From assembly GCA_965220275.1 (NCBI GenBank), contig CBDCPN010000019.1, positions 89,036 to 153,035 on the forward strand: a stretch of 64,000 bases of DNA, given 5' to 3'. This DNA is from Dehalococcoidia bacterium (lineage in GTDB: Bacteria > Chloroflexota > Dehalococcoidia > Lucifugimonadales > Lucifugimonadaceae). The notes under the pieces were generated by a model. That model did not search any database. It saw only the letters and a program-made list of their open reading frames with translations, and was not told where the DNA came from. Made by a program: the position numbers and the translations under genes. Shown piece by piece: positions 12,526-42,271 of this stretch (position 1 is the stretch's first letter; each line of letters starts with the position of its first letter).

Positions 12526-12947
12526 TAGTCCCCGACATCAACCTGCTGCTTTTCGCCCATAACGCCGGCGCCGAACAACACGACTCCGCAAGGCGGTGGT
12601 GGGAGGACCAGGTCAACGGCCCAATCAGCATCGGGCTACCGTGGGTCGTGACGACCGGCTTCATAAGGCTGCTCACCCACCCGAGGGTGCTCGACCGTCC
12701 CGCAACGCCCTCTCAGGCGATCGACTTTGTTGAAGAGTGGTTCCAGTTCCCCCACGTGACACCCATCAACCCAGGCGTCGACCACCTGTCCCGCGTCCGG
12801 CAATTCCTGGTCGCCGCAGGCGTCGGCGGTAATTTGACGACCGACGCCCACATCGCGGCGCTCGCCATTGAGTACCAGGCAGAAGTCCACTCCAACGACC
12901 GCGACTTCGGCCGGTTCCCCGGCCTGCGTTGGCGCAACCCCCTCTGA
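12522..12947 (+). CDS. vapC: Type II toxin, PIN-domain ribonuclease VapC
   Basis: 141 aa with PIN acidic residues in the expected places (VPDINLL, TDAHIAALA, SNDRDF). There is a 4-nt overlap with the antitoxin gene. Confidence 0.85.
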   Translation: MIVPDINLLLFAHNAGAEQHDSARRWWEDQVNGPISIGLPWVVTTGFIRLLTHPRVLDRPATPSQAIDFVEEWFQFPHVTPINPGVDHLSRVRQFLVAAGVGGNLTTDAHIAALAIEYQAEVHSNDRDFGRFPGLRWRNPL

Positions 12948-19630: not shown

Positions 19631-20779
19631 ATGGTCGAGTGGCTTGGGATTGAGCACCTGTTCGAGCTTTCCACGGGAGATAAGGTCGCCGCCCTATTCA
19701 CCCCCCTCATAATCTTCATCGCCCTCTCGATCGCGACGGTGCTCCTGCCCGGCAAGTGGGTCCCCGGATACGCCACCGACGAAAGAACCGGCGAGCCCCG
19801 CAGGTACCGGCTCAACGGCCTCCTCGTCTTCGTCATCGCCAATCTCATCTGGGGCTTCGAGGTCATCCCAGGTCTGGGGCGCGATTGGTTCTACCGCACT
19901 TCGCTCTACGCAGTCGCCGGCGGCACCGGCTTCGCAGTGCTCTTCACGGCCATCGCCGTCTACACCCAGCCGAAGACCAGGGACCGCAACCCCTTTGTCG
20001 ACTTCTACGTGGGCCGCGTCCAGGAGATCCGCTTCTTCAACGACCGCCTCGACCTCAAGATGACCTTTTACGTTGTGGGCAGCACGATGCTCGGCATCAA
20101 TGCCATGTCGGGCGCGGCCTGGCACTACGAGCAGTTCAGCCCCACCAACGAAGTCAACCCCGGCGTCTTCGTCTACGCCGCCATTTTCACCTTCTACGTG
20201 TTCGACGACCACATCTTCGAGCGCGTCCGGCTCTACACCTATGACCTCATCCACGAGCGGATGGGCTTCAAGATGTTCTGGGGCGACAACATCGCCTACG
20301 GCTGGCTCTACATCCTCCCCCTGTACGGCATGGCCGCCTACCCCGACCCCGGCTTCTCGACCGCCTGGACCTACGTCTGGATCATCGGCGCCTCCGCCCT
20401 GTTCCTTGTCGGATGGGGCATAGCCCGGGGCGCCAACATCCAGAAGTACACCTTCAAGCGCTGGCCTGAACGCAAGTTCCTCGGGATCATCGAGCCCCGC
20501 TACATCCAGGCCGGCGACCGCAAGATCCTGACCAGCGGTTTCTGGGGCGTCGCCCGCCACTTCAACTACATGGGCGAGTTCCTCTTCGCCGTGGCGGTGG
20601 GCCTCTCCTTCGGATATTTTGGCGTCGCCTGGTCGTGGGCCTACCTGGCCTTCGCCGTCTGGTTGTTCACCTCGCGCCAGCGGCAGGACGACGTGGCCTG
20701 CGCCGAGAAGTACGGCCAGGAGAAGTGGGCCGAGTACCAGGAGAAGGTGCCGTACCGCATCATCCCCGGCATCTATTGA
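19631..20779 (+). CDS. ERG4/ERG24-family sterol reductase homologue (polytopic membrane NADPH reductase)
   Basis: 382-aa multi-TM protein. The C-terminus SGFWGVARHFNYMGEFLF ... SRQRQDDVACAEKYGQEKWAEYQEKVPYRIIPGIY matches the sterol reductase signature (..R..RD...C..KYG..W..Y...VPYR..P.IY), with a one-residue insertion. Confidence 0.8.
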   Translation: MVEWLGIEHLFELSTGDKVAALFTPLIIFIALSIATVLLPGKWVPGYATDERTGEPRRYRLNGLLVFVIANLIWGFEVIPGLGRDWFYRTSLYAVAGGTGFAVLFTAIAVYTQPKTRDRNPFVDFYVGRVQEIRFFNDRLDLKMTFYVVGSTMLGINAMSGAAWHYEQFSPTNEVNPGVFVYAAIFTFYVFDDHIFERVRLYTYDLIHERMGFKMFWGDNIAYGWLYILPLYGMAAYPDPGFSTAWTYVWIIGASALFLVGWGIARGANIQKYTFKRWPERKFLGIIEPRYIQAGDRKILTSGFWGVARHFNYMGEFLFAVAVGLSFGYFGVAWSWAYLAFAVWLFTSRQRQDDVACAEKYGQEKWAEYQEKVPYRIIPGIY

Positions 20780-21204
20780 TGCTGGCGGAGCCTGCGCCTG
20801 CGTTCGGGGCTAGTCCGTTTCCGCGCACGTCAGCAGGGGCTGGAGGTCGCCGACGACGAGGCGCGAGCGATGCTCGCCGAGCGTCGGGTGTTGCTGGACC
20901 GCGCGTAGACTGTCGCTGCCTTCGCCAAGGAGATGAGCGAGTTCCGGCAAACGAGCGCGACCACCGAGACGCGGGCGTTCGTGCGCTACTTCGTGAAGAA
21001 GATCATGGTCATCCCCGGCGCCGCTTCTATTCGCAACACGGCGCCTTTGCCGGACGACAGTCTTTTGGCCGGCCGGGCCAGCAAGATGTTAACCCTTGAA
21101 ACCTCGGTCCTGTCTACTGTCCACGTCGGTCCACGATCACTCCTCGCACTGCTATGTCTAAGGTCAGGCGTCCAGACGAAAATTTGAGCCTCTGCCTGGA
21201 ACTA

Positions 21205-22191
21205 CTACGCGCAAGCCGGGTCGTCGGCAGACCAGCGGTTGTAAGCGGGATCGTTTTCGCGGGCTAATCGCTCACGGGCCTGCCTCCAATCCTCTGCCCA
21301 CGCTTCGGCGTTGTGAAGCTCCGACTCCGGGTGTTCCCTGCTACGCGCAACGAACCCGGGGAATGCCGCTCTGCCTGTGTGTTGGCCAACGGGGTTGTAT
21401 CGCAGGTCCAGGCTCCACCTGATCCGGTTGCTGTTGTTCGGCAGCGAACCGTGACAGGTCAGCCGGTGCATAAATAGCGCGCTCCCTCGTCGCATCGGCA
21501 CTGGAATTGCGTCTCGGATTCGGAAGAGTTCATCCGGTATTTGCAGTCCGGACGGGGAGGTCGCCGTCCCTCCCGGGCAATGCTGGAACAGCCCTTCGGC
21601 GTGGCTTCGCGGCACCAGGTGGAGGCAACCGGCTTCCTCGTCAGCATCCCAGACGGGAATCCAGACCGTCAGTATGTCGGTATCGTCCGCCTCCTCAGTC
21701 ACGACTCCCCCGTCCTGGTGCCACGGCGTCGCGCCCAACTGGACTCCGCCTGTCTCAGGATTCACTGGGGTGAGCGCCTCGGGCGGCTTGAGACGTACGT
21801 GTTGCGTCGGGTTCGAGTAGATCTCAGGCCCGATGATCGACTCCACCGCGTCCAACAATGGCGAGGCGGTCAGGACGTCGAACACCGCCGGCCCATGCCA
21901 CATCGGGGTGTTGTACATGACGTTCCTTTGAGGCAAAGAAAAGTCGAAGTACTGGGCGTGCACCTTGCCGCTTTCCTGGTAGATCCTGGTCAGGCGCTCT
22001 CCGAACTCCATCCCATCGTACGTCGATGCGATCGCACCTTCTTCGAGTAACTCACAGGCAAGGTTATCCAGTACTTTTCCGTATTCCGCCTCAAGCGGAT
22101 CGAGAACCTCGTCAGGGTCGATCACGTCTTCGACCACCACGTAACCTTCCCGCTGAAAATGGTTCAGTTGTTCATCATTGAGCCGTGTCAT
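21205..22191 (-). CDS. Phytanoyl-CoA dioxygenase (PhyH)-family Fe(II)/2-oxoglutarate oxygenase
   Basis: N-terminal LNDEQLNHFQREGYVVVEDV, the WHQDG facial-triad HxD, and a distal His in CHGSLPN. Transcribed divergently from the PKS. Confidence 0.85.
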   Translation of the reverse strand: MTRLNDEQLNHFQREGYVVVEDVIDPDEVLDPLEAEYGKVLDNLACELLEEGAIASTYDGMEFGERLTRIYQESGKVHAQYFDFSLPQRNVMYNTPMWHGPAVFDVLTASPLLDAVESIIGPEIYSNPTQHVRLKPPEALTPVNPETGGVQLGATPWHQDGGVVTEEADDTDILTVWIPVWDADEEAGCLHLVPRSHAEGLFQHCPGGTATSPSGLQIPDELFRIRDAIPVPMRRGSALFMHRLTCHGSLPNNSNRIRWSLDLRYNPVGQHTGRAAFPGFVARSREHPESELHNAEAWAEDWRQARERLARENDPAYNRWSADDPACA

Positions 22192-33899: not shown

Positions 33900-34856
33900 A
33901 TGAGTCGGCAGTCTCCTTCCCGCGTCGCAAGGAAGATCAGCAAATTCTCCATGTCTCTAGACCCCGCTTGGGAACTGCCCAAGCCTCTTTCCACGCATGA
34001 CGTTCAGGTGGACGACGACACCGTCATCGTCCTGAGGCGCCACGGCAATCCGGACGGCCCGCGACTCGTCATGAGCCACGGAAACGGCCTTGCGATCGAC
34101 CTCTATTACCCCTTCTGGTCCAGGTTGACCGGCGAATTCGACCTGATTGTCTACGACCAACGAAACCATGGCTGGAACGAACTGAGCATGCTCGAAAACC
34201 ACAACGTCCCCACCCTGGTCGCCGATCATGACGCCGTTCTCGAAGCAATAGACGACAAATACGGCCTGAAGCCTCAAGTTGGGGTTTTCCACTCTGTATC
34301 CGCCCTGGTGTCGCTCCTGTCGCCTGTTCGGGGAGTTCACTACTCTGCCCTCGTACTGTTCGACCCCCCTCTTTGCAAGCCCGGAAGAAGCCACAAGGAG
34401 TTCGAGGCCGCGGCCGTTCGCGCCGCGGGGTTCGCTCGCAACAGGACCGAGAAATTCCGAAGCAGGGAGCAGTTTTCTGACTTTCTTCCGTTCCTGCCTC
34501 CCTTCCAACGCTTTGCGCCCGGCGTCTTTGAACTCATGGCCGGTACGACGCTTCGTGAGCGCAACGGCGAACAAGGCTACGAACTGCGTTGCCCCGCCGC
34601 GTACGAAGCTCAGATGATCGACTACGCCAGCGTCTTCGGAGTGGCGGTGAACTTCGACACGCTGACGTGCCCGGTGAAGGTAATCGGAGCCGATCCCACC
34701 CTGCCCTATTCGTATCTACCTACGCTGGATATGACTGACATCCTGAGCGTGAACTACGATTTTCTGCCCGAAGCGACTCACTTTCTCCAACTCGAGAGGC
34801 CGGAAGCGTGCGCGGAGGTTATGCGGGAGTTCCTCAACCGGATCGAGTTCGGTTGA
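33900..34856 (+). CDS. Alpha/beta-fold hydrolase (candidate chain-release or acyl-transfer enzyme)
   Basis: An HGNG oxyanion-type motif early in the protein. The nucleophile-elbow region is VFHSVSA (atypical: Ser retained, flanking Gly residues not). The C-terminal EATHFLQLERPE is typical of the fold. Confidence 0.7.
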   Translation: MSRQSPSRVARKISKFSMSLDPAWELPKPLSTHDVQVDDDTVIVLRRHGNPDGPRLVMSHGNGLAIDLYYPFWSRLTGEFDLIVYDQRNHGWNELSMLENHNVPTLVADHDAVLEAIDDKYGLKPQVGVFHSVSALVSLLSPVRGVHYSALVLFDPPLCKPGRSHKEFEAAAVRAAGFARNRTEKFRSREQFSDFLPFLPPFQRFAPGVFELMAGTTLRERNGEQGYELRCPAAYEAQMIDYASVFGVAVNFDTLTCPVKVIGADPTLPYSYLPTLDMTDILSVNYDFLPEATHFLQLERPEACAEVMREFLNRIEFG

Positions 34857-34916
34857 GCGACCACTACCCGGACTGACGCCCGGGACCGACAGCGTCTCCG
34901 GGCCGCTTCGGCTGGG

Positions 34917-36344
34917 GTGAATAACGCCAGCGAATTTTTTGGGGATTCGTGGTCAATGGCAACCGGCCGGAAAAAGACGAAGTTGCGCCGCATAGCCATA
35001 GTTGGAGGCGGCATTTCCGGGTTGGGGGCGGCATGGGCTATGAACCGGCACCCGGACCGTTTTGACTTCCGCCTGTATGAGGCCCAGTCTCGAATCGGCG
35101 GGAACGCAGTAACGGCGGATATGCCGCAAGATGACGGCTCTTCAATCCCGTTCGACATTTCCGTCACCGCCTGCATCCCATCCGTATATCACCACATCCT
35201 CCTCCTGATGCAGCGGTACGGCATCGATCTGGTCGACACCAGGTTCAGCTACAGCGTGAAGTACCGCGGCCAGGTATACGCCCACGACTTCGACTCTGAG
35301 ATCAGGGAACAGCTACAACCAGAGATCGCAAAGTTCCAGCGGATCTTGAAACGCCTGCACTGGTTCGGCGCTCTGAGCCGGTCCCGGTCAAAGTGCGTGA
35401 ACGCCCTCAACCCGCTCAACTACGTGAGCATGGGCACCGTCCTGAACCTCGCAGGACTATCCGGGGATTTTCGCTACAAGGTGCTGAAGCCCATGTTCGT
35501 CAATTTCCTGATGGCGACCAATGTGTTCGACATGCCGGCCGCCCTTTTCGCCAGGTATCTCGAATTCTTCGACATTGAGACCGCCACGACGATGCACACC
35601 TGGGACAGGGGAACACGGAACATCTACGAACACTTGTCCGCCGACTTCAGGGACAAGATATACCTCAACCGTCCTGTACGAAAAGTGTATCGACGGCCTT
35701 TCGGGGTTGAGATCGAAGACGAAAATGGCGTTAAGGAAACCTATGACGACGTGATATTTGCGTGTAACGCAAATCAGACCTTGATGATCCTGGACAAGCC
35801 CACGTTATTGGAGCGATACACACTCTCCTCGGTCCGTTATGAAAGTGAACTACACAACCACACGCTTGTTCACTGGGACTCGTCAGTACTGCCGGATAAC
35901 GAAGTGAGGCCGTTGGAAACGCGTAGCAATCACATAGAACAATACGGCGTGAGACCAGACAACTATGAAATCACCTACATCATGCACAACCAGCAGCCAT
36001 GGGTCAGCCGGTCAGACAAGCCGTGCCTGGTAACTTACAACCCCATAAGTGAGATAGATCGCGGAAAAGTCGTCGGGAGGTGGTGGTTCCAACACATCGT
36101 GCATGACGTTCGCCATGTCGCACTGCTGATTCCTATGTTCCGGTTCATCCAGGGCAAGCGCCGGACCTGGCACTGCGGCGCTCACACGCTGGTCAACAGC
36201 CAGGAGACATGTTTCGTAAGCGGGCTCGCAGCAGCGAAGCAGATCGGCGCTGATTATCCGTTCGAAGACCCCGAGGCGAGGCGGTCCTTCAACTACTACG
36301 GGGGCATCATGTTTGGGTGGCGCTTCAAAAAGGCCAAGGGCTGA
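34917..36344 (+). CDS. FAD/NAD(P)-binding oxidoreductase, amine-oxidase/phytoene-desaturase-like (COG2907 type)
   Basis: RIAIVGGGISGLGAAWAM...YEAQSRIGGN dinucleotide-binding motif. 475 aa. The start may instead be the ATG at 34956. Confidence 0.75.
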   Translation: MNNASEFFGDSWSMATGRKKTKLRRIAIVGGGISGLGAAWAMNRHPDRFDFRLYEAQSRIGGNAVTADMPQDDGSSIPFDISVTACIPSVYHHILLLMQRYGIDLVDTRFSYSVKYRGQVYAHDFDSEIREQLQPEIAKFQRILKRLHWFGALSRSRSKCVNALNPLNYVSMGTVLNLAGLSGDFRYKVLKPMFVNFLMATNVFDMPAALFARYLEFFDIETATTMHTWDRGTRNIYEHLSADFRDKIYLNRPVRKVYRRPFGVEIEDENGVKETYDDVIFACNANQTLMILDKPTLLERYTLSSVRYESELHNHTLVHWDSSVLPDNEVRPLETRSNHIEQYGVRPDNYEITYIMHNQQPWVSRSDKPCLVTYNPISEIDRGKVVGRWWFQHIVHDVRHVALLIPMFRFIQGKRRTWHCGAHTLVNSQETCFVSGLAAAKQIGADYPFEDPEARRSFNYYGGIMFGWRFKKAKG

Positions 36345-36613
36345 ATACAGCGGCCCACCCTGCGGCCCGTGGTGAACCTCAGACCGCATCTTTGTATCGC
36401 GGAATACGTGCAGTCGTGCCGCCTTGCATCGCGAATGAACGAACACTCACACTCCCGTATACGCGGTGAAGCGGACGCGACGTTGACGCGCGACGACGGC
36501 GAACAGGCATACCCTGCGCGTTTCCCGAAATTCATCCACCCGTCAGTCAAAACTCCATAAGTTACAATTAATTCAGTTACGGCACGCGGGCTCGTTCCAC
36601 GCATTGAGACCGA

Positions 36614-38668
36614 TTGGCCAGGCGCGGAGAGATGGCACTTTCAACACTTCCAACAACCGATGCGCCAGATGAGTCAACCCATCAGCTGAGCCTGCCAGAA
36701 GAACTCATCCTTTCGCTCCTCAACGAGGAGAGCGGCTACTTCCACCAGGTGCCTGGCTGGAATTTGAACTGCGCCGTCATCGGCGCCGTCCTTGCGGAAC
36801 TCTCGCTTAGGTCGCACATAGACACGGACATGGAGGCCCTTTTCCTCCTGAACCGGACGGAAACGGGTGATCCAGCACTGGATCCTATCCTCGCCGAAAT
36901 CACGAGCGGTCCTGCTCGGCGTAACGCCCAATTCTGGATCGAAAAGCTTGCCCCCCATGCTGAGTCGATCATTGATTTGACTTTGCAGCGGTTAGTAGAC
37001 CTTAACGTTCTGGAATATCACGACGGCGATTTCTACACGCTGGCACGCGGCGCCGGGCAGTTGGGACCGCCAGACGGCTCCCAACCGGGCGCCGGCGCAG
37101 AGTTTGTCAAGACGCGGATCAGCAGGGCCATTTTCGAGAACGAGATCCCTCACCCTCGCGACGTAATCATCATCTGCCTGATCAACACATGCGATGTGTT
37201 TCGGTTTATGTTCCAACTGGACGAAGAATCTGAGGAACGCATCGAGTTCATTTGCAAGATGGACCTGATCGGCCGGTCGATCGCCGCCGCTGTCGCCGAA
37301 AACCTCGCCGGTCCGTTGCTTCGACATTCGGCATTGTCTAAAGAAATTCCGGCTGTCTCCCTGCGCAAGTTGGCGCTCCATCCACATATACGCAGCGGCA
37401 ACGTTCCCGCGCTGTTCGCGGACCTCGCGCATGAGTACGGACCGGTGTTCCAGGTCCGTCCACCTTTTGCCAAGCCCATGATCATCCTGGCCGGGTTGGA
37501 GACCAATCGCTGGGTGCACCGGCGAGGGCGCATGTACCTGAGAACCAGGGACTATTTTGCTGACTTCGAAGCTGTCTACGGTGCGTCGGGGGTTTTGCCA
37601 TCCCTGGACGGCGCCGATCACTTCCGCCTCCGTAAGTCTCTGGGACCGGCCTACTCGCGGGGGCGGCTCGAAGGGCAATTGGACCAACTCTACGCCCAAT
37701 TCCGCGGACATGTCGCCGACTGGAAGGTTGGCGACAACTTAAATGCGACCAGCATGTGCAGGCAGATTGTCAATGCTCAGCTTTCGCCGCTCTTCATCAG
37801 CGTGGATTCTCAGGACATCTTCGAAGACCTGACGAAGTACAAGGAACGGGCGCTCAGCACGCACGTATTGAAGATCCTGCCCAAATTCATGCTCAAGACC
37901 CCGGGCATGAGACGCCGCGCGAAGTCGATCGATACATTGCTTGAACGCGTCCAGAACGTCCACACGTCCGCCCAACGTTCCGAAACAAGTCGTGACCTGG
38001 CGGACGACTTGCTGAGCCTGCACGCGAGCGATCCGCAATTCGTTCCCGAGTCGAATTTGCGATTCGCGCTTTCGGCCGCGCTGATCGCCAGCGTGTACCT
38101 CGGCGACGCCCTCAGCTTCGCGGTGTACGCGATGGCGGCGCAGCCTGAGATCTACCGCAAGATCCAGGATGAAGCTGACGCCCTGTTCGACAACGGAGAT
38201 CCGGCCGGCAATGACTTCAAACCTGCCAATATTGACGTCACGCACCGCTTTCTCATAGAGACCTTGCGGATGTACCCGATCGTCCCGATGTCCGTCCGGA
38301 ACGTGATGAATTCTTGCGTGGTTGAGGGCTACGAAATACCCGTCGGATCGCGGATCTTCATCGCCCAATCCGCTTCACATTACATGGACGATATCTTCCC
38401 TGACCCCCACACGTTTGATATCGACCGCTATCTGCCGCCGCGCAATGAGCACCTCAGCCCGGGATATGCGCCGTACGGGCTTGGCACCCACATGTGCCTC
38501 GGCTCCCGGTGGATGCAACTGCAAATGGCCATCAACGTACTCATGCTCGCCCACTATTTCAATGTCGAAGTCAGCCCTTCAAACTACAAGCTCAAGATCA
38601 ATCCAATACCGTCCATGAAACCGAGCAAGAAGCTGAGGTTCCGCATCGCGGAGCGGAGACGGAATTAG
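36614..38668 (+). CDS. Fusion protein: N-terminal GPP34/GOLPH3-like domain plus C-terminal cytochrome P450
   Basis: N-terminal part: LSLPEELILSLLNEESG, AVIGAVLAELSLRS and TGDPALDP match the bacterial GPP34 family pattern. C-terminal part: ExxR (ETLR), PDPHTFDIDRY, and heme loop PYGLGTHMCLG (Cys codon 38495-38497). The start is uncertain (TTG at 36614 or ATG at 36632). Confidence 0.85.
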   Translation: MARRGEMALSTLPTTDAPDESTHQLSLPEELILSLLNEESGYFHQVPGWNLNCAVIGAVLAELSLRSHIDTDMEALFLLNRTETGDPALDPILAEITSGPARRNAQFWIEKLAPHAESIIDLTLQRLVDLNVLEYHDGDFYTLARGAGQLGPPDGSQPGAGAEFVKTRISRAIFENEIPHPRDVIIICLINTCDVFRFMFQLDEESEERIEFICKMDLIGRSIAAAVAENLAGPLLRHSALSKEIPAVSLRKLALHPHIRSGNVPALFADLAHEYGPVFQVRPPFAKPMIILAGLETNRWVHRRGRMYLRTRDYFADFEAVYGASGVLPSLDGADHFRLRKSLGPAYSRGRLEGQLDQLYAQFRGHVADWKVGDNLNATSMCRQIVNAQLSPLFISVDSQDIFEDLTKYKERALSTHVLKILPKFMLKTPGMRRRAKSIDTLLERVQNVHTSAQRSETSRDLADDLLSLHASDPQFVPESNLRFALSAALIASVYLGDALSFAVYAMAAQPEIYRKIQDEADALFDNGDPAGNDFKPANIDVTHRFLIETLRMYPIVPMSVRNVMNSCVVEGYEIPVGSRIFIAQSASHYMDDIFPDPHTFDIDRYLPPRNEHLSPGYAPYGLGTHMCLGSRWMQLQMAINVLMLAHYFNVEVSPSNYKLKINPIPSMKPSKKLRFRIAERRRN
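36686..37300 (+). other. GPP34/GOLPH3-like domain of the P450 fusion (approximate borders)
   Basis: See the parent CDS. The pattern LPEEL.L..L.eesG ... GAVLAELsLr ... TGDP.LD ... W is the hallmark of GPP34-family proteins. Confidence 0.7.
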
Positions 38669-38711
38669 TGTGCTGAGGGCAGCCCGTCAGGCCGGGCAAT
38701 AAGCAGACTGC

Positions 38712-39749
38712 CTAATGGGGCTTGCGGGCCAGGAAACAATATAACGGCGTGAAGACCCCGGCCCTGCCGCCCGCAACATAGGCGTTGGCGGTACGGTCCA
38801 GCAATCTGACAACGTCTGCGGAGCCATTAGGGAACACCCCCAGTTTTTCGGCCAGCCTGGTCGCGCCAATGATCGCCTTGCGGCCCAGCGGAATCCTGCG
38901 AAGTGCGTTGCCCAGCGTTCCGTGCCTGGTCTCCATGGGCTGGTACCACGGCGTGGTCGGGCCGTTCTCCCCTATCGCCCGGTCAATCCCCTCGATCACC
39001 TCAAATCCCACCGATTCGAGCGCCCGGTTCACCTCGCCCGTTGTCGCAATGTCCTTGAGGGCGATGCCTTGCATCAGATCACGCTTGATGACGCGGTGCC
39101 GGTTATCGTCGGGATCGAACTTGTCCGTCATGCACATTTCCTGACCCCAGAAGAGGGCTCCCGGTTTCAGCACGCGGTAGATTTCGGCAAACGCTGCCAT
39201 CTTGTCCGGTGCATGGCAAGTCGATTCGATCGCGTAACCCCTGTCGAACGTGTCGTCCGTGACGGCGTCCATGTCCGTGAAGCTGCACGCGAGGTAATCG
39301 ATCATGTGGTCGAGCCCCGCTTCGGCATTCAACGATTTCGCCTTTTCCAGCTGGACTTCACTGTTGTTTACCCCGACGACCCTGACACCGGACTCTCGGG
39401 CCACACGACGCATCGGGCCACCGATCCCGCATCCGACGTCCACTACTGTCATGCCCTTCCGCAACTCCAGCTTGCCGATCATCAGCCGCTGATGCCGAAT
39501 CTTGGATTCTGCCAGGGTCTCCCCGGGCGATAACGGCGCAAAGTGCAGGGACTCGCCCCAACCGAACACCATGAAATCGCTGCAGAGGTCGTAATACTCC
39601 TTGACGGTTTCGGTGTGGTCATAGCCTCTCGCACCACCATCTTCCGCGGACGCTCTCTCTATCCAACCGTCGTATCGTTGGACTCGACCGGAAACGTCCG
39701 ACCCGCGGTATGCGGCCTTCAGGCCGTTGTACAGTTCACGAATTTGCAT
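38712..39749 (-). CDS. Sterol 24-C-methyltransferase (ERG6/SMT)-like SAM-dependent methyltransferase
   Basis: Aligns by eye along its whole length with yeast ERG6. EYYDLCSDFMVFGWGESLHF matches FYEYGWGSSFHF. VVDVGCGIGGP matches LDVGCGVGGP. YAIESTCHAP matches YAIEATCHAP. The C-terminal tail is VAGGRAGVFTPLYCFLARKP. Confidence 0.85.
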   Translation of the reverse strand: MQIRELYNGLKAAYRGSDVSGRVQRYDGWIERASAEDGGARGYDHTETVKEYYDLCSDFMVFGWGESLHFAPLSPGETLAESKIRHQRLMIGKLELRKGMTVVDVGCGIGGPMRRVARESGVRVVGVNNSEVQLEKAKSLNAEAGLDHMIDYLACSFTDMDAVTDDTFDRGYAIESTCHAPDKMAAFAEIYRVLKPGALFWGQEMCMTDKFDPDDNRHRVIKRDLMQGIALKDIATTGEVNRALESVGFEVIEGIDRAIGENGPTTPWYQPMETRHGTLGNALRRIPLGRKAIIGATRLAEKLGVFPNGSADVVRLLDRTANAYVAGGRAGVFTPLYCFLARKPH

Positions 39750-39989
39750 GAGCGCCCTTCAATTAGACAGAGGCAAGTGGTTTGTTCGCCCGAGCAATGC
39801 ATAGATGAAACCGGACAGAATGCGGAAATCCGTCATCGCGGGCAAAGACATAGTTTGCTCCTCTTATGCCCGGTCTCACGTTTCGCGCCAGGATCGCCGA
39901 CTTGCAGCGACTCTTGCTGTAGCCGATCGACGGAGTTGAGAATATTACTGTCGGCATCACCGGCGATAGCGCACCCAAGTACCGGTTCA

Positions 39990-41063
39990 TCACGCCGTCC
40001 CGTTGGCGTCGCTACGGCCTGGACCATCCCCAATCCGGGGGTCAGGATAAAACTGCGTGCAATAGGCGCGGAAGGGCATGATCTCGCCATCGGAACGGCA
40101 CAGACGCGGACGGGACTCGTAGCGCTTGCTGCGCCAGATAATCTCATCCTGCAGGACATCTGCCTTTTGCATGATTGAGATGAACTTGTTCATCACGGGC
40201 GCGCGTAGCCCGACTGGCAGAAACCCCAACCCTGCTACCCACCGTCTGGGTCCCCGTATCTCCTTGACCTGCGAGACCAGGTTCATGTCGATGAGTGTGC
40301 CATCGACGGGCGTCGCCAGGACCCATAGGCGCATGTCCATCCCGATGGACCGCTCCCTGATCTCTACGAACGAGTAGCCAAGGCCATGGATATGGGCGGT
40401 GGCTGCGACGTCAAAAGTGAGCGACGCAATTTTAGCGATCTTCTGCGTTCTTCTGAAATTGAAGCTGCTCAGGAGGTAGGCGCCGTCCACCGACACTTCA
40501 CTATCCCGGTCCACGCTGTCGTAGCCGTGGACGTAGCGCAAATGGCCCACGTCCACCGAGTTTTCTGTCGTCTCCTGGGGATGTCCCGGAAAGCGGAGAG
40601 TTTTGATCTCGATGTCGCACCACCCCTCCTGGTCGGGAGGGTCTTCCGGCAGGTCCCACTGCGGCTCCCTGCCGTCCATCCCCCACCAGGCAAAGATGAG
40701 ACCGCCAATTTCCCGCGTCGGGAAAACCCTCAACCTCGCTGTCCTGGGCGGTTCGGAGTAAGGCGTGGCGACGCACTGGCCAACCGTGTCGAACTCGTAG
40801 CCGTGGAAGGGACAGACGAGCCGGCCCTGGCATACCTTGCCGCCCGCGTCCGGCCCCATGTCGGCGCCCAGGTGCGGGCAATAGGCCCCGGCCACGCAGA
40901 CTTTTCCGCCATCGTCGATCCAGATGACGGTGTTTTCGCCCATCCAGGTCTTCTGCATGAGCTTGGCCTTCAACAAAGCCTTTCGGCTTTCGACGAAGAA
41001 CCAGCCCTCTGGAAACGGGGATAACGTCTTTGCGTACGTAAATGTCCTACGTCCCGTGGACAT
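39990..41063 (-). CDS. Rieske [2Fe-2S] non-heme-iron oxygenase, KshA/Neverland-like
   Basis: Rieske motif CPHLGADM-x-CPFHGYEF and mononuclear iron motif ENSVDVGHLRYVH (EN..D..H....H). 357 aa. No partner reductase or ferredoxin is adjacent. Confidence 0.85.
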   Translation of the reverse strand: MSTGRRTFTYAKTLSPFPEGWFFVESRKALLKAKLMQKTWMGENTVIWIDDGGKVCVAGAYCPHLGADMGPDAGGKVCQGRLVCPFHGYEFDTVGQCVATPYSEPPRTARLRVFPTREIGGLIFAWWGMDGREPQWDLPEDPPDQEGWCDIEIKTLRFPGHPQETTENSVDVGHLRYVHGYDSVDRDSEVSVDGAYLLSSFNFRRTQKIAKIASLTFDVAATAHIHGLGYSFVEIRERSIGMDMRLWVLATPVDGTLIDMNLVSQVKEIRGPRRWVAGLGFLPVGLRAPVMNKFISIMQKADVLQDEIIWRSKRYESRPRLCRSDGEIMPFRAYCTQFYPDPRIGDGPGRSDANGTA

Positions 41064-41428
41064 TGATCAAGATTCCTTACTTGGGTCTGCAGGCAGCGAC
41101 CGTGCCAGGCAACGCCCGCAAATCACGTGCCTCCCCAACGACTACGATTTCGCGGCGTCAGCGCCTGCAACACAGCCACTGGCTAACATTTTAACTACGG
41201 CTGCGCCCGGCGACCCTCGAAAGGGTCGACCACTTCTCGGTCGAATCGCGATTCTTCCGTAGTACAGTATGCCTCCGGCCTGACCAACTTCTGCATTGCC
41301 CGGTTGGCCGGGGTCAATCTGTGCCGGTCCACCGGTGTTCGTCCCGGGGCATGACGCCCACAACCTCTCCGGCGGGCTGACCAGGTTGTCATGATCGGCC
41401 CGCAAACTCTCATAGAAAGGAATCCGGC

Positions 41429-42271
41429 ATGAATTCGTCGCGAAGACCCGTCGCCGTTGTGGTGGGAGCAACGTCGAAGTGGCAGTCAGACGGGCGTAAC
41501 ACGCACATGATCCACGGCAAGACGCTCGACGATAGCGAACTGCCCGTCGGGGTGCGTTGGGGCGTTGGAGGCGCCGTCGCCCTGAAGTTTGCGTCACAGG
41601 GCTTCTTCACGGTTCTAACCACCCGCAAGGCGTCAAACGCCTCCGCGCTGGCCGAGGGCATACGGCAACAGGGCGGCGAAAGCATGATCGTCGAGATGGA
41701 CCTGGCGTCACGGGACTCCATATCAAATGCGTTCGCCGGGATACGGGAACAGGTCGGCGATCCGCACGCGCTGGTCTACAACGCCGGCTATCTGGAGGGG
41801 CGGGACCTCCCGCCGGAGAAGGAACTGCTGGAGCACATCCCGTACGAAATGTTTGAAACCGCGCACCACATCTCCAGCAGCGGACCGTTCCTGGTAGCCA
41901 AGGAAGTCTTGCCCGCGATGCGGGAGCGGGGAGAAGGCTCCTTCCTGATTTCGAACAACGCGTGGTCTTTGCGTGGCAAGAAGCGGTACACCGGCGAGTC
42001 GTTCTATTACCCGCGGGTGATGATGCGGACGTTGGCACAAGTGTTGACGGAGGAGTACTCCGAGCACGGCGTGCACGTTGCAAATGTGGTTATAGACGGC
42101 ACCATCGATTCACCGGGGACACGAGCCCTCCCGCGATTCCAGGAGCGCCCCGAGTTGCTCATTAATCCCGCCCAAATAGCCGAAGCCTTCTACTATCTCC
42201 ACACGCAGGACAAGTCCTGCTGGACGCACGAAATCCAGTTGACCCCATATTCCACGAAACCCAGTGTCTAG
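41429..42271 (+). CDS. Atypical SDR-like NAD(P)-dependent oxidoreductase
   Basis: Rossmann start VAVVVGATSKW, then an insertion of about 27 aa before GVGGAVALKFA. The region aligned to the catalytic Y-x3-K reads FYYPRVMMR, with no Lys. Transcribed divergently from the Rieske oxygenase gene. Confidence 0.65.
   Translation: MNSSRRPVAVVVGATSKWQSDGRNTHMIHGKTLDDSELPVGVRWGVGGAVALKFASQGFFTVLTTRKASNASALAEGIRQQGGESMIVEMDLASRDSISNAFAGIREQVGDPHALVYNAGYLEGRDLPPEKELLEHIPYEMFETAHHISSSGPFLVAKEVLPAMRERGEGSFLISNNAWSLRGKKRYTGESFYYPRVMMRTLAQVLTEEYSEHGVHVANVVIDGTIDSPGTRALPRFQERPELLINPAQIAEAFYYLHTQDKSCWTHEIQLTPYSTKPSV

What the first reader, a model, noticed from the sequence alone, without database searches (positions are those of the whole stretch)
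39990..42271. Divergent pair of a KshA/Neverland-like Rieske oxygenase and an atypical SDR, possibly SdmA/SdmB-like sterol ring chemistry
The Rieske protein has CPHLGA...CPFHGYEF and EN..D..H....H. This motif pair is shared by the steroid-acting Rieske oxygenases: 3-ketosteroid 9-alpha-hydroxylase KshA, cholesterol 7-desaturase Neverland/DAF-36, and the bacterial C-4 demethylase component SdmA.

The divergently transcribed SDR-like protein is unusual. About 27 residues are inserted inside the glycine-rich dinucleotide motif (GATSKW...GVGGAVA), and the Y-x3-K Lys appears to be missing (FYYPRVMMR). No ferredoxin or reductase for the Rieske enzyme is encoded nearby.

The 365-bp shared promoter region contains a 7-bp-stem hairpin (41211-41228) and a 12-bp palindrome (41243-41254).
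Basis: partly seen in the sequence, partly recalled or inferred. Interest (0 to 1): 0.6.

Follow-up and report, generated by a model that had tools for sequence, protein, structure and literature searches.

The report
Sponge-symbiont sterol-type Rieske oxygenase, unrelated SDR
The Rieske gene is an intact steroid-type (KshA-fold) oxygenase from a gene set shared among sponge-dwelling bacteria that most likely modifies and moves sterols; the odd dehydrogenase next to it is a chance neighbour, and the two are not a bacterial C-4 sterol demethylase pair.

Summary
Both genes and all quoted motifs are present at the stated coordinates. The hairpin and palindrome are no more than chance gives and are not conserved.

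The Rieske protein (39990-41063, minus strand) keeps every cofactor ligand. Its closest solved relative is KshA (76 bits; predicted fold TM 0.75). It is not SdmA. It scores 32-33 bits on the SdmA model (cut-off 600) and 30.7 bits against a genuine sponge-symbiont SdmA. One related genome (G451) carries both a canonical SdmB-SdmA-ERG24-CYP51-OSC cluster and a separate copy of this Rieske.

Over 80 related loci, all from sponge or coral symbiont genome bins, its neighbours are a GPP34-P450 fusion (73), an MMPL/sterol-sensing-domain transporter (60), a sterol methyltransferase (54) and an amine-oxidase-like flavoprotein (51). The SDR is adjacent in only two. Of 20 sampled genomes of the same order that hold a match to the Rieske, only the window's own has an oxidosqualene cyclase. 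The set therefore most likely tailors host-derived sterols.

The SDR belongs to a separate, very conserved family. It has no similarity to SdmB and usually sits beside a luciferase-like oxidoreductase.

The regiochemistry of the Rieske enzyme remains unknown. This scan has already reported the same Rieske gene set on other DNA.

The parts
39990..41063 (-). Rieske non-heme iron oxygenase, KshA fold (Rieske domain plus KshA_C catalytic domain), 357 aa, intact
   Evidence: Pfam Rieske 56.6 bits and KshA_C 82.9 bits. KshA is the best PDB match at 76 bits. Model pLDDT 76.5, Foldseek TM 0.75 to KshA5. C62 H64 C84 H87 D171 H174 H179 D306 are invariant in 27 homologues.
41429..42271 (+). Atypical classical-type SDR, 280 aa. 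It has a conserved insert of about 27 aa in the Gly-rich loop and F/L...R in place of Y-x3-K. It is not a conserved partner of the Rieske gene.
   Evidence: adh_short 76 bits. Thousands of 280-aa homologues at 81-93% identity. Family alignment A2. Alignment to 3h7a. Adjacent to the Rieske in only L001 and L002 of 80 loci. A luciferase-like oxidoreductase follows it elsewhere.
41064..41428 (.). 365-bp divergent spacer. The hairpin (41211-41228) and palindrome (41243-41254) are at chance level. Only a short block around 41256-41273 (TCCGTAGTACAGTATGCC) is kept in L001 and L002.
38712..39749 (-). ERG6-type sterol methyltransferase, a member of the conserved gene set
   Evidence: Sterol_MT_C 54.8 bits. 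Within 8 kb of the Rieske in 54 of 80 loci. 17 of 18 SMT-positive genomes of the order sample also have the Rieske.
36614..38668 (+). GPP34 domain fused to a CYP51-related cytochrome P450, the most constant partner of the Rieske gene
   Evidence: Pfam GPP34 and p450. CYP51 gives the best PDB matches, at only 87 bits. Present in 73 of 80 loci. All 18 P450-positive genomes of the order sample have the Rieske.
34917..36344 (+). Amine-oxidase-like FAD protein, a member of the conserved gene set
   Evidence: Pfam Amino_oxidase. Best PDB match is LkcE, E 7e-26. Present in 51 of 80 loci.
19631..20779 (+). ERG4/ERG24-family sterol reductase homologue, an occasional member of the gene set
   Evidence: Pfam ERG4_ERG24 129 bits. 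A 60-63% homologue lies 1-6 kb from the Rieske in 9 of 80 loci.

Best explanation
The Rieske gene encodes a catalytically competent, KshA-fold mono-oxygenase or desaturase. Its substrate is a sterol or a closely similar polycyclic lipid.

It belongs to a gene set that is passed horizontally among sponge-associated bacteria (here Dehalococcoidia and Acidimicrobiia). The other members are a GPP34-P450 fusion, an ERG6-type methyltransferase, an amine-oxidase-like flavoprotein and an MMPL-type transporter with a sterol-sensing domain. An LppX-like lipoprotein and an ERG4/24 reductase are sometimes added.

Proposed mechanism, inferred and not shown:
1. Sterols, mostly taken from the host because nearly all carriers lack a cyclase, are brought to the enzymes by the transporter.
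2. The Rieske enzyme receives electrons from a general cellular ferredoxin/reductase and hydroxylates or desaturates the sterol.
3. The P450, flavoprotein, methyltransferase and reductase carry out further tailoring.
4. The product is returned to the membrane or exported.

The divergently transcribed SDR is not part of this. It belongs to a separate, highly conserved family that landed next to the Rieske gene only in this lineage.

Shown here: cofactor ligands, fold, synteny, co-occurrence, absence of a cyclase in carriers, and coexistence with genuine SdmA. Inferred: the substrate class and the order of steps. Unknown: the position attacked.
For: Cofactor ligands are invariant. KshA is the top relative by sequence and by fold.

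Neighbour counts over 80 loci:
- GPP34-P450: 73
- RND/MMPL with Patched and sterol-sensing-domain matches: 60
- SMT: 54
- Flavoprotein: 51
- LppX-like lipoprotein: 14
- ERG4/24: 9

In a sample of 101 genomes of the same order, 20 have a match to the Rieske. All 18 P450-positive genomes and 17 of 18 SMT-positive genomes are among them. Rieske and P450 are broken together in G051 and G063.

The cyclase was found only in G000 among those 101 genomes. It was found in none of five further carriers, which include complete chromosomes.

G451 has the canonical SdmB-SdmA-ERG24-CYP51-SE::OSC cluster and, separately, AmOx-Rieske-GPP34-P450.

Acidimicrobiia sequences nest inside Dehalococcoidia sequences in the tree.

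In G000 the two homologues of the transporter flank the cyclase on contig C12.
Against: - No biochemical data exist for any member of this Rieske family.
- I could not place it against Neverland/DAF-36, because no reference sequence was reachable.
- The sterol assignment rests on the family resemblance of the neighbours. The sterol-sensing-domain match of the transporter is weak (E 2.4e-10) and such matches also occur in hopanoid and mycobacterial lipid pumps.
- A Sup-type PKS lies 7 kb away in this window.
- No electron-transfer partner is encoded nearby.
Confidence: 0.72

Rival explanations
1. One reading: the Rieske enzyme and the SDR form an SdmA/SdmB-like pair that oxidises and removes the C-4 methyl groups of sterols made by the bacterium.
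For: SdmA is the best NCBIfam match of the Rieske protein. G000 has an oxidosqualene cyclase but no canonical SdmA, SdmB or CYP51, so a substitute would be needed if sterols were made de novo.
Against: - The SdmA match is 32-33 bits against a cut-off of 600 and covers only the N-terminal half. Against a real SdmA it is 30.7 bits.
- The SDR has no similarity to SdmB and is adjacent in 2 of 80 loci.
- 19 of 20 carriers in the order sample lack a cyclase.
- G451 has genuine SdmAB and this Rieske together.
- In G000 the squalene-epoxidase part next to the cyclase is broken.
Confidence: 0.04
2. The enzyme is a true catabolic KshA: a 3-ketosteroid 9-alpha-hydroxylase that opens ring B so the symbiont can consume host steroids. 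This is what was proposed for divergent sponge 'KshA' clusters by Holert et al. 2018 (PMC5790920).
For: KshA is the closest characterised relative by sequence and fold. Holert et al. report KshA-like clusters found only in sponge genome bins. Most carriers lack a cyclase, so the substrate is exogenous.
Against: - Identity to KshA is only 22% in the fold-based (Foldseek) alignment.
- No KshB-type reductase was found. The genome has two FNR-type NAD_binding_1 matches and five Fer2 matches, none at the same place.
- None of the recurring neighbours in 80 loci is a ring-cleavage or beta-oxidation gene. They are a methyltransferase, a P450, a flavoprotein and transporters. A methyltransferase adds carbon, which is tailoring, not degradation.
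Confidence: 0.1
3. The gene set acts on a non-sterol lipid. Candidates are methyl-branched fatty acids or polyketides from the neighbouring Sup-type PKS (methylase plus flavin desaturase plus oxygenase, as in furan fatty acid synthesis), or hopanoids.
For: The flavoprotein is of the type found beside cyclopropane and methyl fatty acid synthases, and its best PDB matches are the PKS-associated LkcE and a fatty acid isomerase. The methyltransferase also matches CMAS. A PKS, a PPTase and ACPs lie 5-17 kb away in this window. MMPL and LppX-type proteins move non-sterol lipids in mycobacteria (my own knowledge).
Against: - The PKS accompanies the Rieske in only 2 of 80 loci.
- The methyltransferase has the Sterol_MT_C domain.
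- The P450's best matches are CYP51.
- ERG4/24 homologues recur.
- The SMT/P450 pair is embedded in canonical sterol clusters in L122 and L123.
- Four of five carriers checked have no squalene-hopene cyclase.
Confidence: 0.12

Closest known systems
KshA, oxygenase component of 3-ketosteroid 9-alpha-hydroxylase (M. tuberculosis 2ZYL/4QCK; Rhodococcus KshA1/KshA5 4QDC-4QDF)
   Same: Same two-domain architecture (Rieske plus KshA_C). Same metal ligands, including the C-terminal D-x3-W motif. It is the best relative by sequence (76 bits) and by fold (TM 0.75).
   Different: Only 22% identity. No KshB partner. No catabolic neighbours. Linked instead to a methyltransferase, a P450 fusion and transporters.
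SdmA/SdmB, the bacterial sterol C-4 demethylase (Methylococcus MCA1016/1017; sponge-symbiont copies in L122 and L177)
   Same: SdmA is also a Rieske oxygenase acting on sterols, and it occurs in sponge-symbiont sterol clusters beside the same SMT/GPP34-P450 pair.
   Different: 30.7-33 bits only, restricted to the N-terminal half. The SdmB partner is absent. Both coexist in G451. Carriers mostly lack a cyclase.
Neverland/DAF-36/DES7 cholesterol 7-desaturases of animals and ciliates
   Same: From my own knowledge they share the Rieske plus KshA_C-type architecture and act on exogenous 3-beta-hydroxysterols without ring cleavage. That matches the tailoring context here.
   Different: Those enzymes are membrane-anchored eukaryotic proteins.
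Sponge-only 'KshA' clusters IV/V of Holert et al. 2018 (PMC5790920), and GPP34_L proteins of Ferreira et al. 2025 (PMC11706023)
   Same: Both are divergent KshA-like proteins, or GPP34-P450 fusions, reported only from sponge symbiont genome bins.
   Different: Those papers read them as catabolic enzymes and as host-manipulating effectors respectively. Neither reports the Rieske-P450-SMT-transporter linkage. I could not check whether clusters IV/V are this family.
PDB 3h7a, a Rhodopseudomonas palustris short-chain dehydrogenase of unknown function (for the SDR)
   Same: It is the best solved relative (66 bits) and it also lacks the catalytic Tyr, having Phe there.
   Different: 3h7a keeps the Lys and has no insert in the Gly-rich loop.

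Membership tests
Rieske non-heme iron oxygenase, KshA-like alpha subunit | Rieske [2Fe-2S] ligands C-x-H ... C-x2-H | tested here: met
   C62, H64, C84, H87 are present and invariant in 27 homologues. Pfam Rieske 56.6 bits.
Rieske non-heme iron oxygenase, KshA-like alpha subunit | Mononuclear iron 2-His-1-carboxylate site plus bridging Asp | tested here: met
   D171, H174, H179 and D306 align to the corresponding KshA motifs and are invariant.
Rieske non-heme iron oxygenase, KshA-like alpha subunit | KshA_C catalytic domain and overall fold | tested here: met
   PF19298 82.9 bits against a cut-off of 23.3, covering positions 2-207 of 207. Foldseek TM 0.72-0.76 to the KshA structures.
KshA (3-ketosteroid 9-alpha-hydroxylase) | Cognate KshB-type reductase (FNR domains fused to a plant-type ferredoxin) | tested here: not met
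   No Fer2 or NAD_binding_1 match in the window. No place in the genome has both.
KshA (3-ketosteroid 9-alpha-hydroxylase) | Embedded among steroid ring- and side-chain-degradation genes | tested here: not met
   The recurring neighbours in 80 loci are a P450 fusion, a transporter, SMT, a flavoprotein, an LppX-like lipoprotein and an MFS transporter.
KshA (3-ketosteroid 9-alpha-hydroxylase) | 9-alpha-hydroxylation of 3-keto-4-ene steroids | not testable with these tools
   Needs an enzyme assay.
SdmA (4-beta-methylsterol monooxygenase) | Full-length match to NCBIfam NF052579 (cut-off 600 bits) | tested here: not met
   32-33 bits, model positions 9-174 only. A genuine sponge-symbiont homologue scores 410 bits over the full length.
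SdmA (4-beta-methylsterol monooxygenase) | Adjacent SdmB (extended SDR of the HpnA type) and a cyclase in the genome | tested here: not met
   The neighbouring SDR scores -1.1 bits against SdmB. A cyclase was found in 1 of 20 carriers.
SdmA (4-beta-methylsterol monooxygenase) | Being the only sterol-type Rieske oxygenase of a sterol producer | tested here: not met
   G451 has SdmA (407 bits) in its sterol cluster and this Rieske (59% identity) elsewhere.
Neverland/DAF-36 cholesterol 7-desaturase | Clustering with animal and ciliate 7-desaturases in a phylogeny; 7,8-desaturation of cholesterol | not testable with these tools
   No reference sequence was reachable and no solved structure turned up.
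Classical SDR (for the 280-aa protein) | Rossmann fold with a T-G-x3-G-x-G loop, N-N-A-G, and the catalytic Ser...Tyr-x3-Lys | tested here: inconclusive
   adh_short 76 bits, YNAG is present, and the Rossmann core is modelled. However, the Gly loop is split by a conserved insert of about 27 aa, and F/L192 and R196 stand at the Tyr and Lys positions.
SdmB / SdmC sterol demethylase reductase | Extended SDR matching NF052578 | tested here: not met
   No significant similarity to the SdmB of L122. NF052578 is not among the 25 best NCBIfam matches shown.

The most novel reading that the evidence does not exclude
The Rieske enzyme, perhaps together with the flavoprotein, is a Neverland-style desaturase or hydroxylase. 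It re-activates finished host sterols, which lack the double bond a methyltransferase needs. The variant SMT, the P450 and the reductase of the gene set can then build unusual alkylated or oxygenated 'sponge' sterols, which the transporter returns to the host.

This would fit one pattern seen here. The same SMT/GPP34-P450 pair sits without this Rieske inside the de novo clusters L122 and L123, where the intermediates still carry the 24-ene. In cyclase-less symbionts it sits with the Rieske and flavoprotein.

Symbionts without any sterol synthesis of their own would then shape the sterol profile used as a sponge biomarker.
Probability: 0.15. Interest if true: 0.8.

Novelty: new variant of a known kind. 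Interest (0 to 1): 0.42.

Why it matters
Sponge sterols with unusual side chains underpin the claim that 24-isopropylcholestane marks the earliest animals. It is disputed whether the sponge or its bacteria make them.

Published work has looked at symbiont methyltransferases inside complete sterol pathways. The gene set described here is more widespread in the genomes sampled and sits mostly in symbionts that cannot cyclise squalene. It points to modification of host sterols as a second route.

The Rieske enzyme is the least understood step of that set. It is also an uncharacterised branch of the small group of steroid-acting Rieske oxygenases.

For the finding as written, the practical result is negative. 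The proposed SdmA/SdmB-like pair does not exist.

Tried and rejected
1. SdmA/SdmB reading: rejected on score, partner identity, synteny, missing cyclase and coexistence in G451.

2. A regulatory role for the hairpin and palindrome: rejected as chance-level and not conserved.

3. A Rosetta-stone link through the 645-aa relative P0288. Its N-terminal extension has no Pfam match and no similarity to the window's GPP34 domain.

4. Naming the 30-55% relatives found in the representative library. The sources give no useful names, and the plasmid records offer only generic 'Rieske 2Fe-2S' annotations at about 30% identity. No labelled phylogeny with KshA, Neverland and SdmA could therefore be built.

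5. The search for the Brown et al. contig JGIcombinedJ30088_10000835 did not return it. It did give an equivalent cluster, L122.

7. I did not run a fold search on the SDR model. The insert and two other loops have pLDDT below 50.
Full report
**What is in the sequence**

The two ORFs exist as described. One is a 357-aa Rieske protein at 39990-41063 on the minus strand. The other is a 280-aa SDR-like protein at 41429-42271 on the plus strand. A 365-bp spacer separates them.

All quoted motifs are present. The hairpin (41211-41228) and the palindrome (41243-41254) are also there. However, a hairpin of that size appears in 12% of shuffles of the spacer and such a palindrome in 10%. Neither survives in the two relatives that share this spacer, L001 and L002. 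In those relatives only a short block around 41256-41273 is kept. The consensus scan finds no promoter-like or terminator-like site.

No plant-type ferredoxin domain or FNR-type reductase domain lies in the window.

**The Rieske protein**

Pfam gives Rieske plus KshA_C, the latter over its whole length at 82.9 bits.

- The best solved relatives are the KshA proteins of Rhodococcus and M. tuberculosis (76-71 bits). These matches include the C-terminal D-x3-W...FY segment that carries the third iron ligand.
- SxtT/GxtA, the dicamba demethylase and others follow at 54 bits and below.
- An AlphaFold model (pLDDT 76.5, pTM 0.80) matches KshA best (TM 0.72-0.76, 22% identity), ahead of GxtA/SxtT and DdmC.
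- The Rieske ligands C62, H64, C84, H87, the bridging D171 and the iron ligands H174, H179, D306 are invariant in 27 homologues.

The enzyme looks functional. The iron motif itself is generic to Rieske oxygenases (my own knowledge), so it does not single out steroid enzymes.

**Not SdmA**

The SdmA equivalog model scores 32-33 bits against a cut-off of 600, and only over the N-terminal half.

I recovered a genuine sponge-symbiont SdmB-SdmA-ERG24-CYP51-SE::OSC cluster (L122; SdmA 410 bits over the full length, SdmB 267 bits). It is of the kind described by Brown et al. 2023 (PMC10070321). The window's Rieske scores 30.7 bits against that SdmA. The window's SDR scores -1.1 bits against that SdmB.

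SdmB is an extended SDR of the HpnA type. The window's SDR is a classical-type SDR.

The decisive case is G451, a genome of the same class. On one contig it carries SdmB-SdmA-ERG24-CYP51 next to an intact SE::OSC fusion. On another contig it carries flavoprotein-Rieske-GPP34-P450, with a 59% identical copy of this Rieske. The two Rieske enzymes are therefore not interchangeable.

**The real partners**

All 80 best related loci come from sponge (one from coral) symbiont genome bins of Dehalococcoidia/Chloroflexota and Acidimicrobiia.

| Neighbour within 8 kb of the Rieske | Loci of 80 |
|---|---|
| GPP34-P450 fusion | 73 |
| ~820-aa MMPL protein with Patched and sterol-sensing-domain matches | 60 |
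| ERG6-type methyltransferase | 54 |
| Amine-oxidase-like flavoprotein | 51 |
| LppX/LprG-like lipoprotein | 14 |
| MFS transporter | 14 |
| ERG4/24 homologue | 9 |
| The SDR | 2 (L001, L002, the closest relatives) |

No ferredoxin or reductase recurs.

In a sample of 101 genomes of the same order:

- 20 have a match to the Rieske.
- All 18 genomes with the P450 fusion, and 17 of 18 with the SMT, are among them.
- In G051 and G063 both the Rieske and the P450 are fragmentary (broken or truncated), which suggests joint decay.
- The SDR is in 7 genomes, 5 of them carriers. Where both positions are on one contig they lie 0.14 to 1.6 Mb apart.

Acidimicrobiia sequences nest within Dehalococcoidia sequences in a quick tree. 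This fits transfer between phyla.

**Where the substrate comes from**

An oxidosqualene cyclase was found in only one of the 101 order genomes (the window's own) and in 2 of 401 genomes of the phylum. It was found in none of five further carrier genomes, which include complete chromosomes. The closest relative, G104, has only a squalene-hopene cyclase. No canonical SdmA was found in any of them.

Most carriers therefore cannot make sterols. The substrate is most likely host sterol. That makes C-4 demethylation pointless, because host sterols are already demethylated.

The window's own genome is a partial exception. Contig C12 has a cyclase flanked by two copies of the transporter and a second GPP34-P450 paralogue. 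However, the squalene-epoxidase part upstream of the cyclase is interrupted by a frame change and an in-frame TAG. No CYP51 or SdmAB was found.

**Catabolism or tailoring**

Holert et al. 2018 (PMC5790920) reported sponge-only KshA-like clusters and read them as steroid degradation. The context here argues otherwise. A methyltransferase, a P450, a flavoprotein of the lipid-desaturase/isomerase type (best PDB matches LkcE and a fatty acid isomerase), a reductase and transporters form a tailoring-and-transport set. No ring-cleavage or beta-oxidation genes recur.

I put tailoring of sterols at about 0.7, catabolic KshA at 0.1, a non-sterol lipid substrate at 0.12, and the SdmA/SdmB reading at 0.04.

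Which carbon is attacked is open. The KshA relationship suggests hydroxylation of the ring system. The Neverland precedent suggests desaturation. Neither could be tested here.

**The SDR**

It belongs to a family of 280-aa proteins with 81-93% identity to the query. The search scored 8000 candidates and all of them matched. Mean column identity in a sample of 26 is 91%, and the insert is conserved.

The best solved relative is 3h7a. In that alignment F192 (F or L across the family) stands at the catalytic Tyr position and R196 at the Lys position. The AlphaFold model has a confident Rossmann core but pLDDT below 50 for the insert.

Elsewhere the gene is followed by a luciferase-like oxidoreductase. 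Its function is unknown. Nothing ties it to sterols.

**Literature and earlier notes**

Ferreira et al. 2025 (PMC11706023) catalogued the GPP34-P450 fusions as sponge-symbiont-specific and proposed host manipulation. They mention rare GPP34-Rieske fusions but no sterol link. Kelly et al. 2022 (PMC9531527) and Brown et al. 2023 describe de novo sterol clusters in sponge symbionts.

Earlier reports of this scan, on other genomes, reached the same reading of the Rieske gene set. Earlier first-reader notes recorded the same insert-bearing SDR in unrelated contexts. My synteny, co-occurrence and SdmA comparisons test those readings independently and agree with them.

**Limits**

- No labelled phylogeny with Neverland and KshA clades could be built.

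Noticed in passing
own genome contig C12, locus L094:5801-17469 (outside the window): A second sterol-type locus: a GPP34-P450 paralogue (54% identical), an MMPL/SSD transporter, an oxidosqualene cyclase (711 bits on TIGR03463), and a squalene-epoxidase part homologous to the SE::OSC fusions of L122 and G451, followed by a second transporter. The epoxidase part is split by a frame change near L094:13177-13316 and an in-frame TAG at 12762. This is either decay or an assembly error.
   Followed up: partly
own genome contig C6, locus L095:4139-12589: A complete-looking hopanoid cluster: HpnE, HpnD, HpnC, squalene-hopene cyclase, HpnA, HpnH. A second SMT paralogue (46%) lies elsewhere on C6 at about 197819-198736.
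   Followed up: partly
window 41429-42271 and loci L103-L108: The insert-bearing SDR family is unusually conserved: 77-93% identity across the homologues found, always 280-282 aa. It often sits next to transposase genes and ankyrin-repeat proteins, and directly upstream of a 354-aa luciferase-like oxidoreductase. This suggests a mobile two-gene unit of unknown function in sponge symbionts.
   Followed up: partly
genomes G051, G052, G063 (order sample): The Rieske gene is in pieces with internal stops in G052 and G063, and reduced to a 115-residue piece in G051. In G051 and G063 the GPP34-P450 is also fragmentary (broken or truncated). This looks like joint decay of the gene set.
   Followed up: no
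G451, loci L178/L180 (C4:221515-225018): A third arrangement: another SMT paralogue (38-45%) immediately followed by a 457-aa Rieske protein only 30% identical to the window's. SMT-Rieske pairing has therefore arisen more than once.
   Followed up: no
window 41256-41273: The only part of the Rieske/SDR spacer kept in L001 and L002 is TCCGTAGTACAGTATGCC, with core CGTAGTACA. It may be a promoter or an operator. No sigma-70 consensus fits.
   Followed up: partly
window 19631-22191: An ERG4/24-family reductase homologue lies next to a convergently oriented PhyH-type Fe(II)/2-oxoglutarate dioxygenase, just upstream of the Sup-type PKS. The dioxygenase may be a further lipid-tailoring enzyme.
   Followed up: no
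window 34000-40000: G+C is 57-59% over the flavoprotein, P450 and SMT genes, against 61-64% in much of the window. This fits acquisition by transfer.
   Followed up: no
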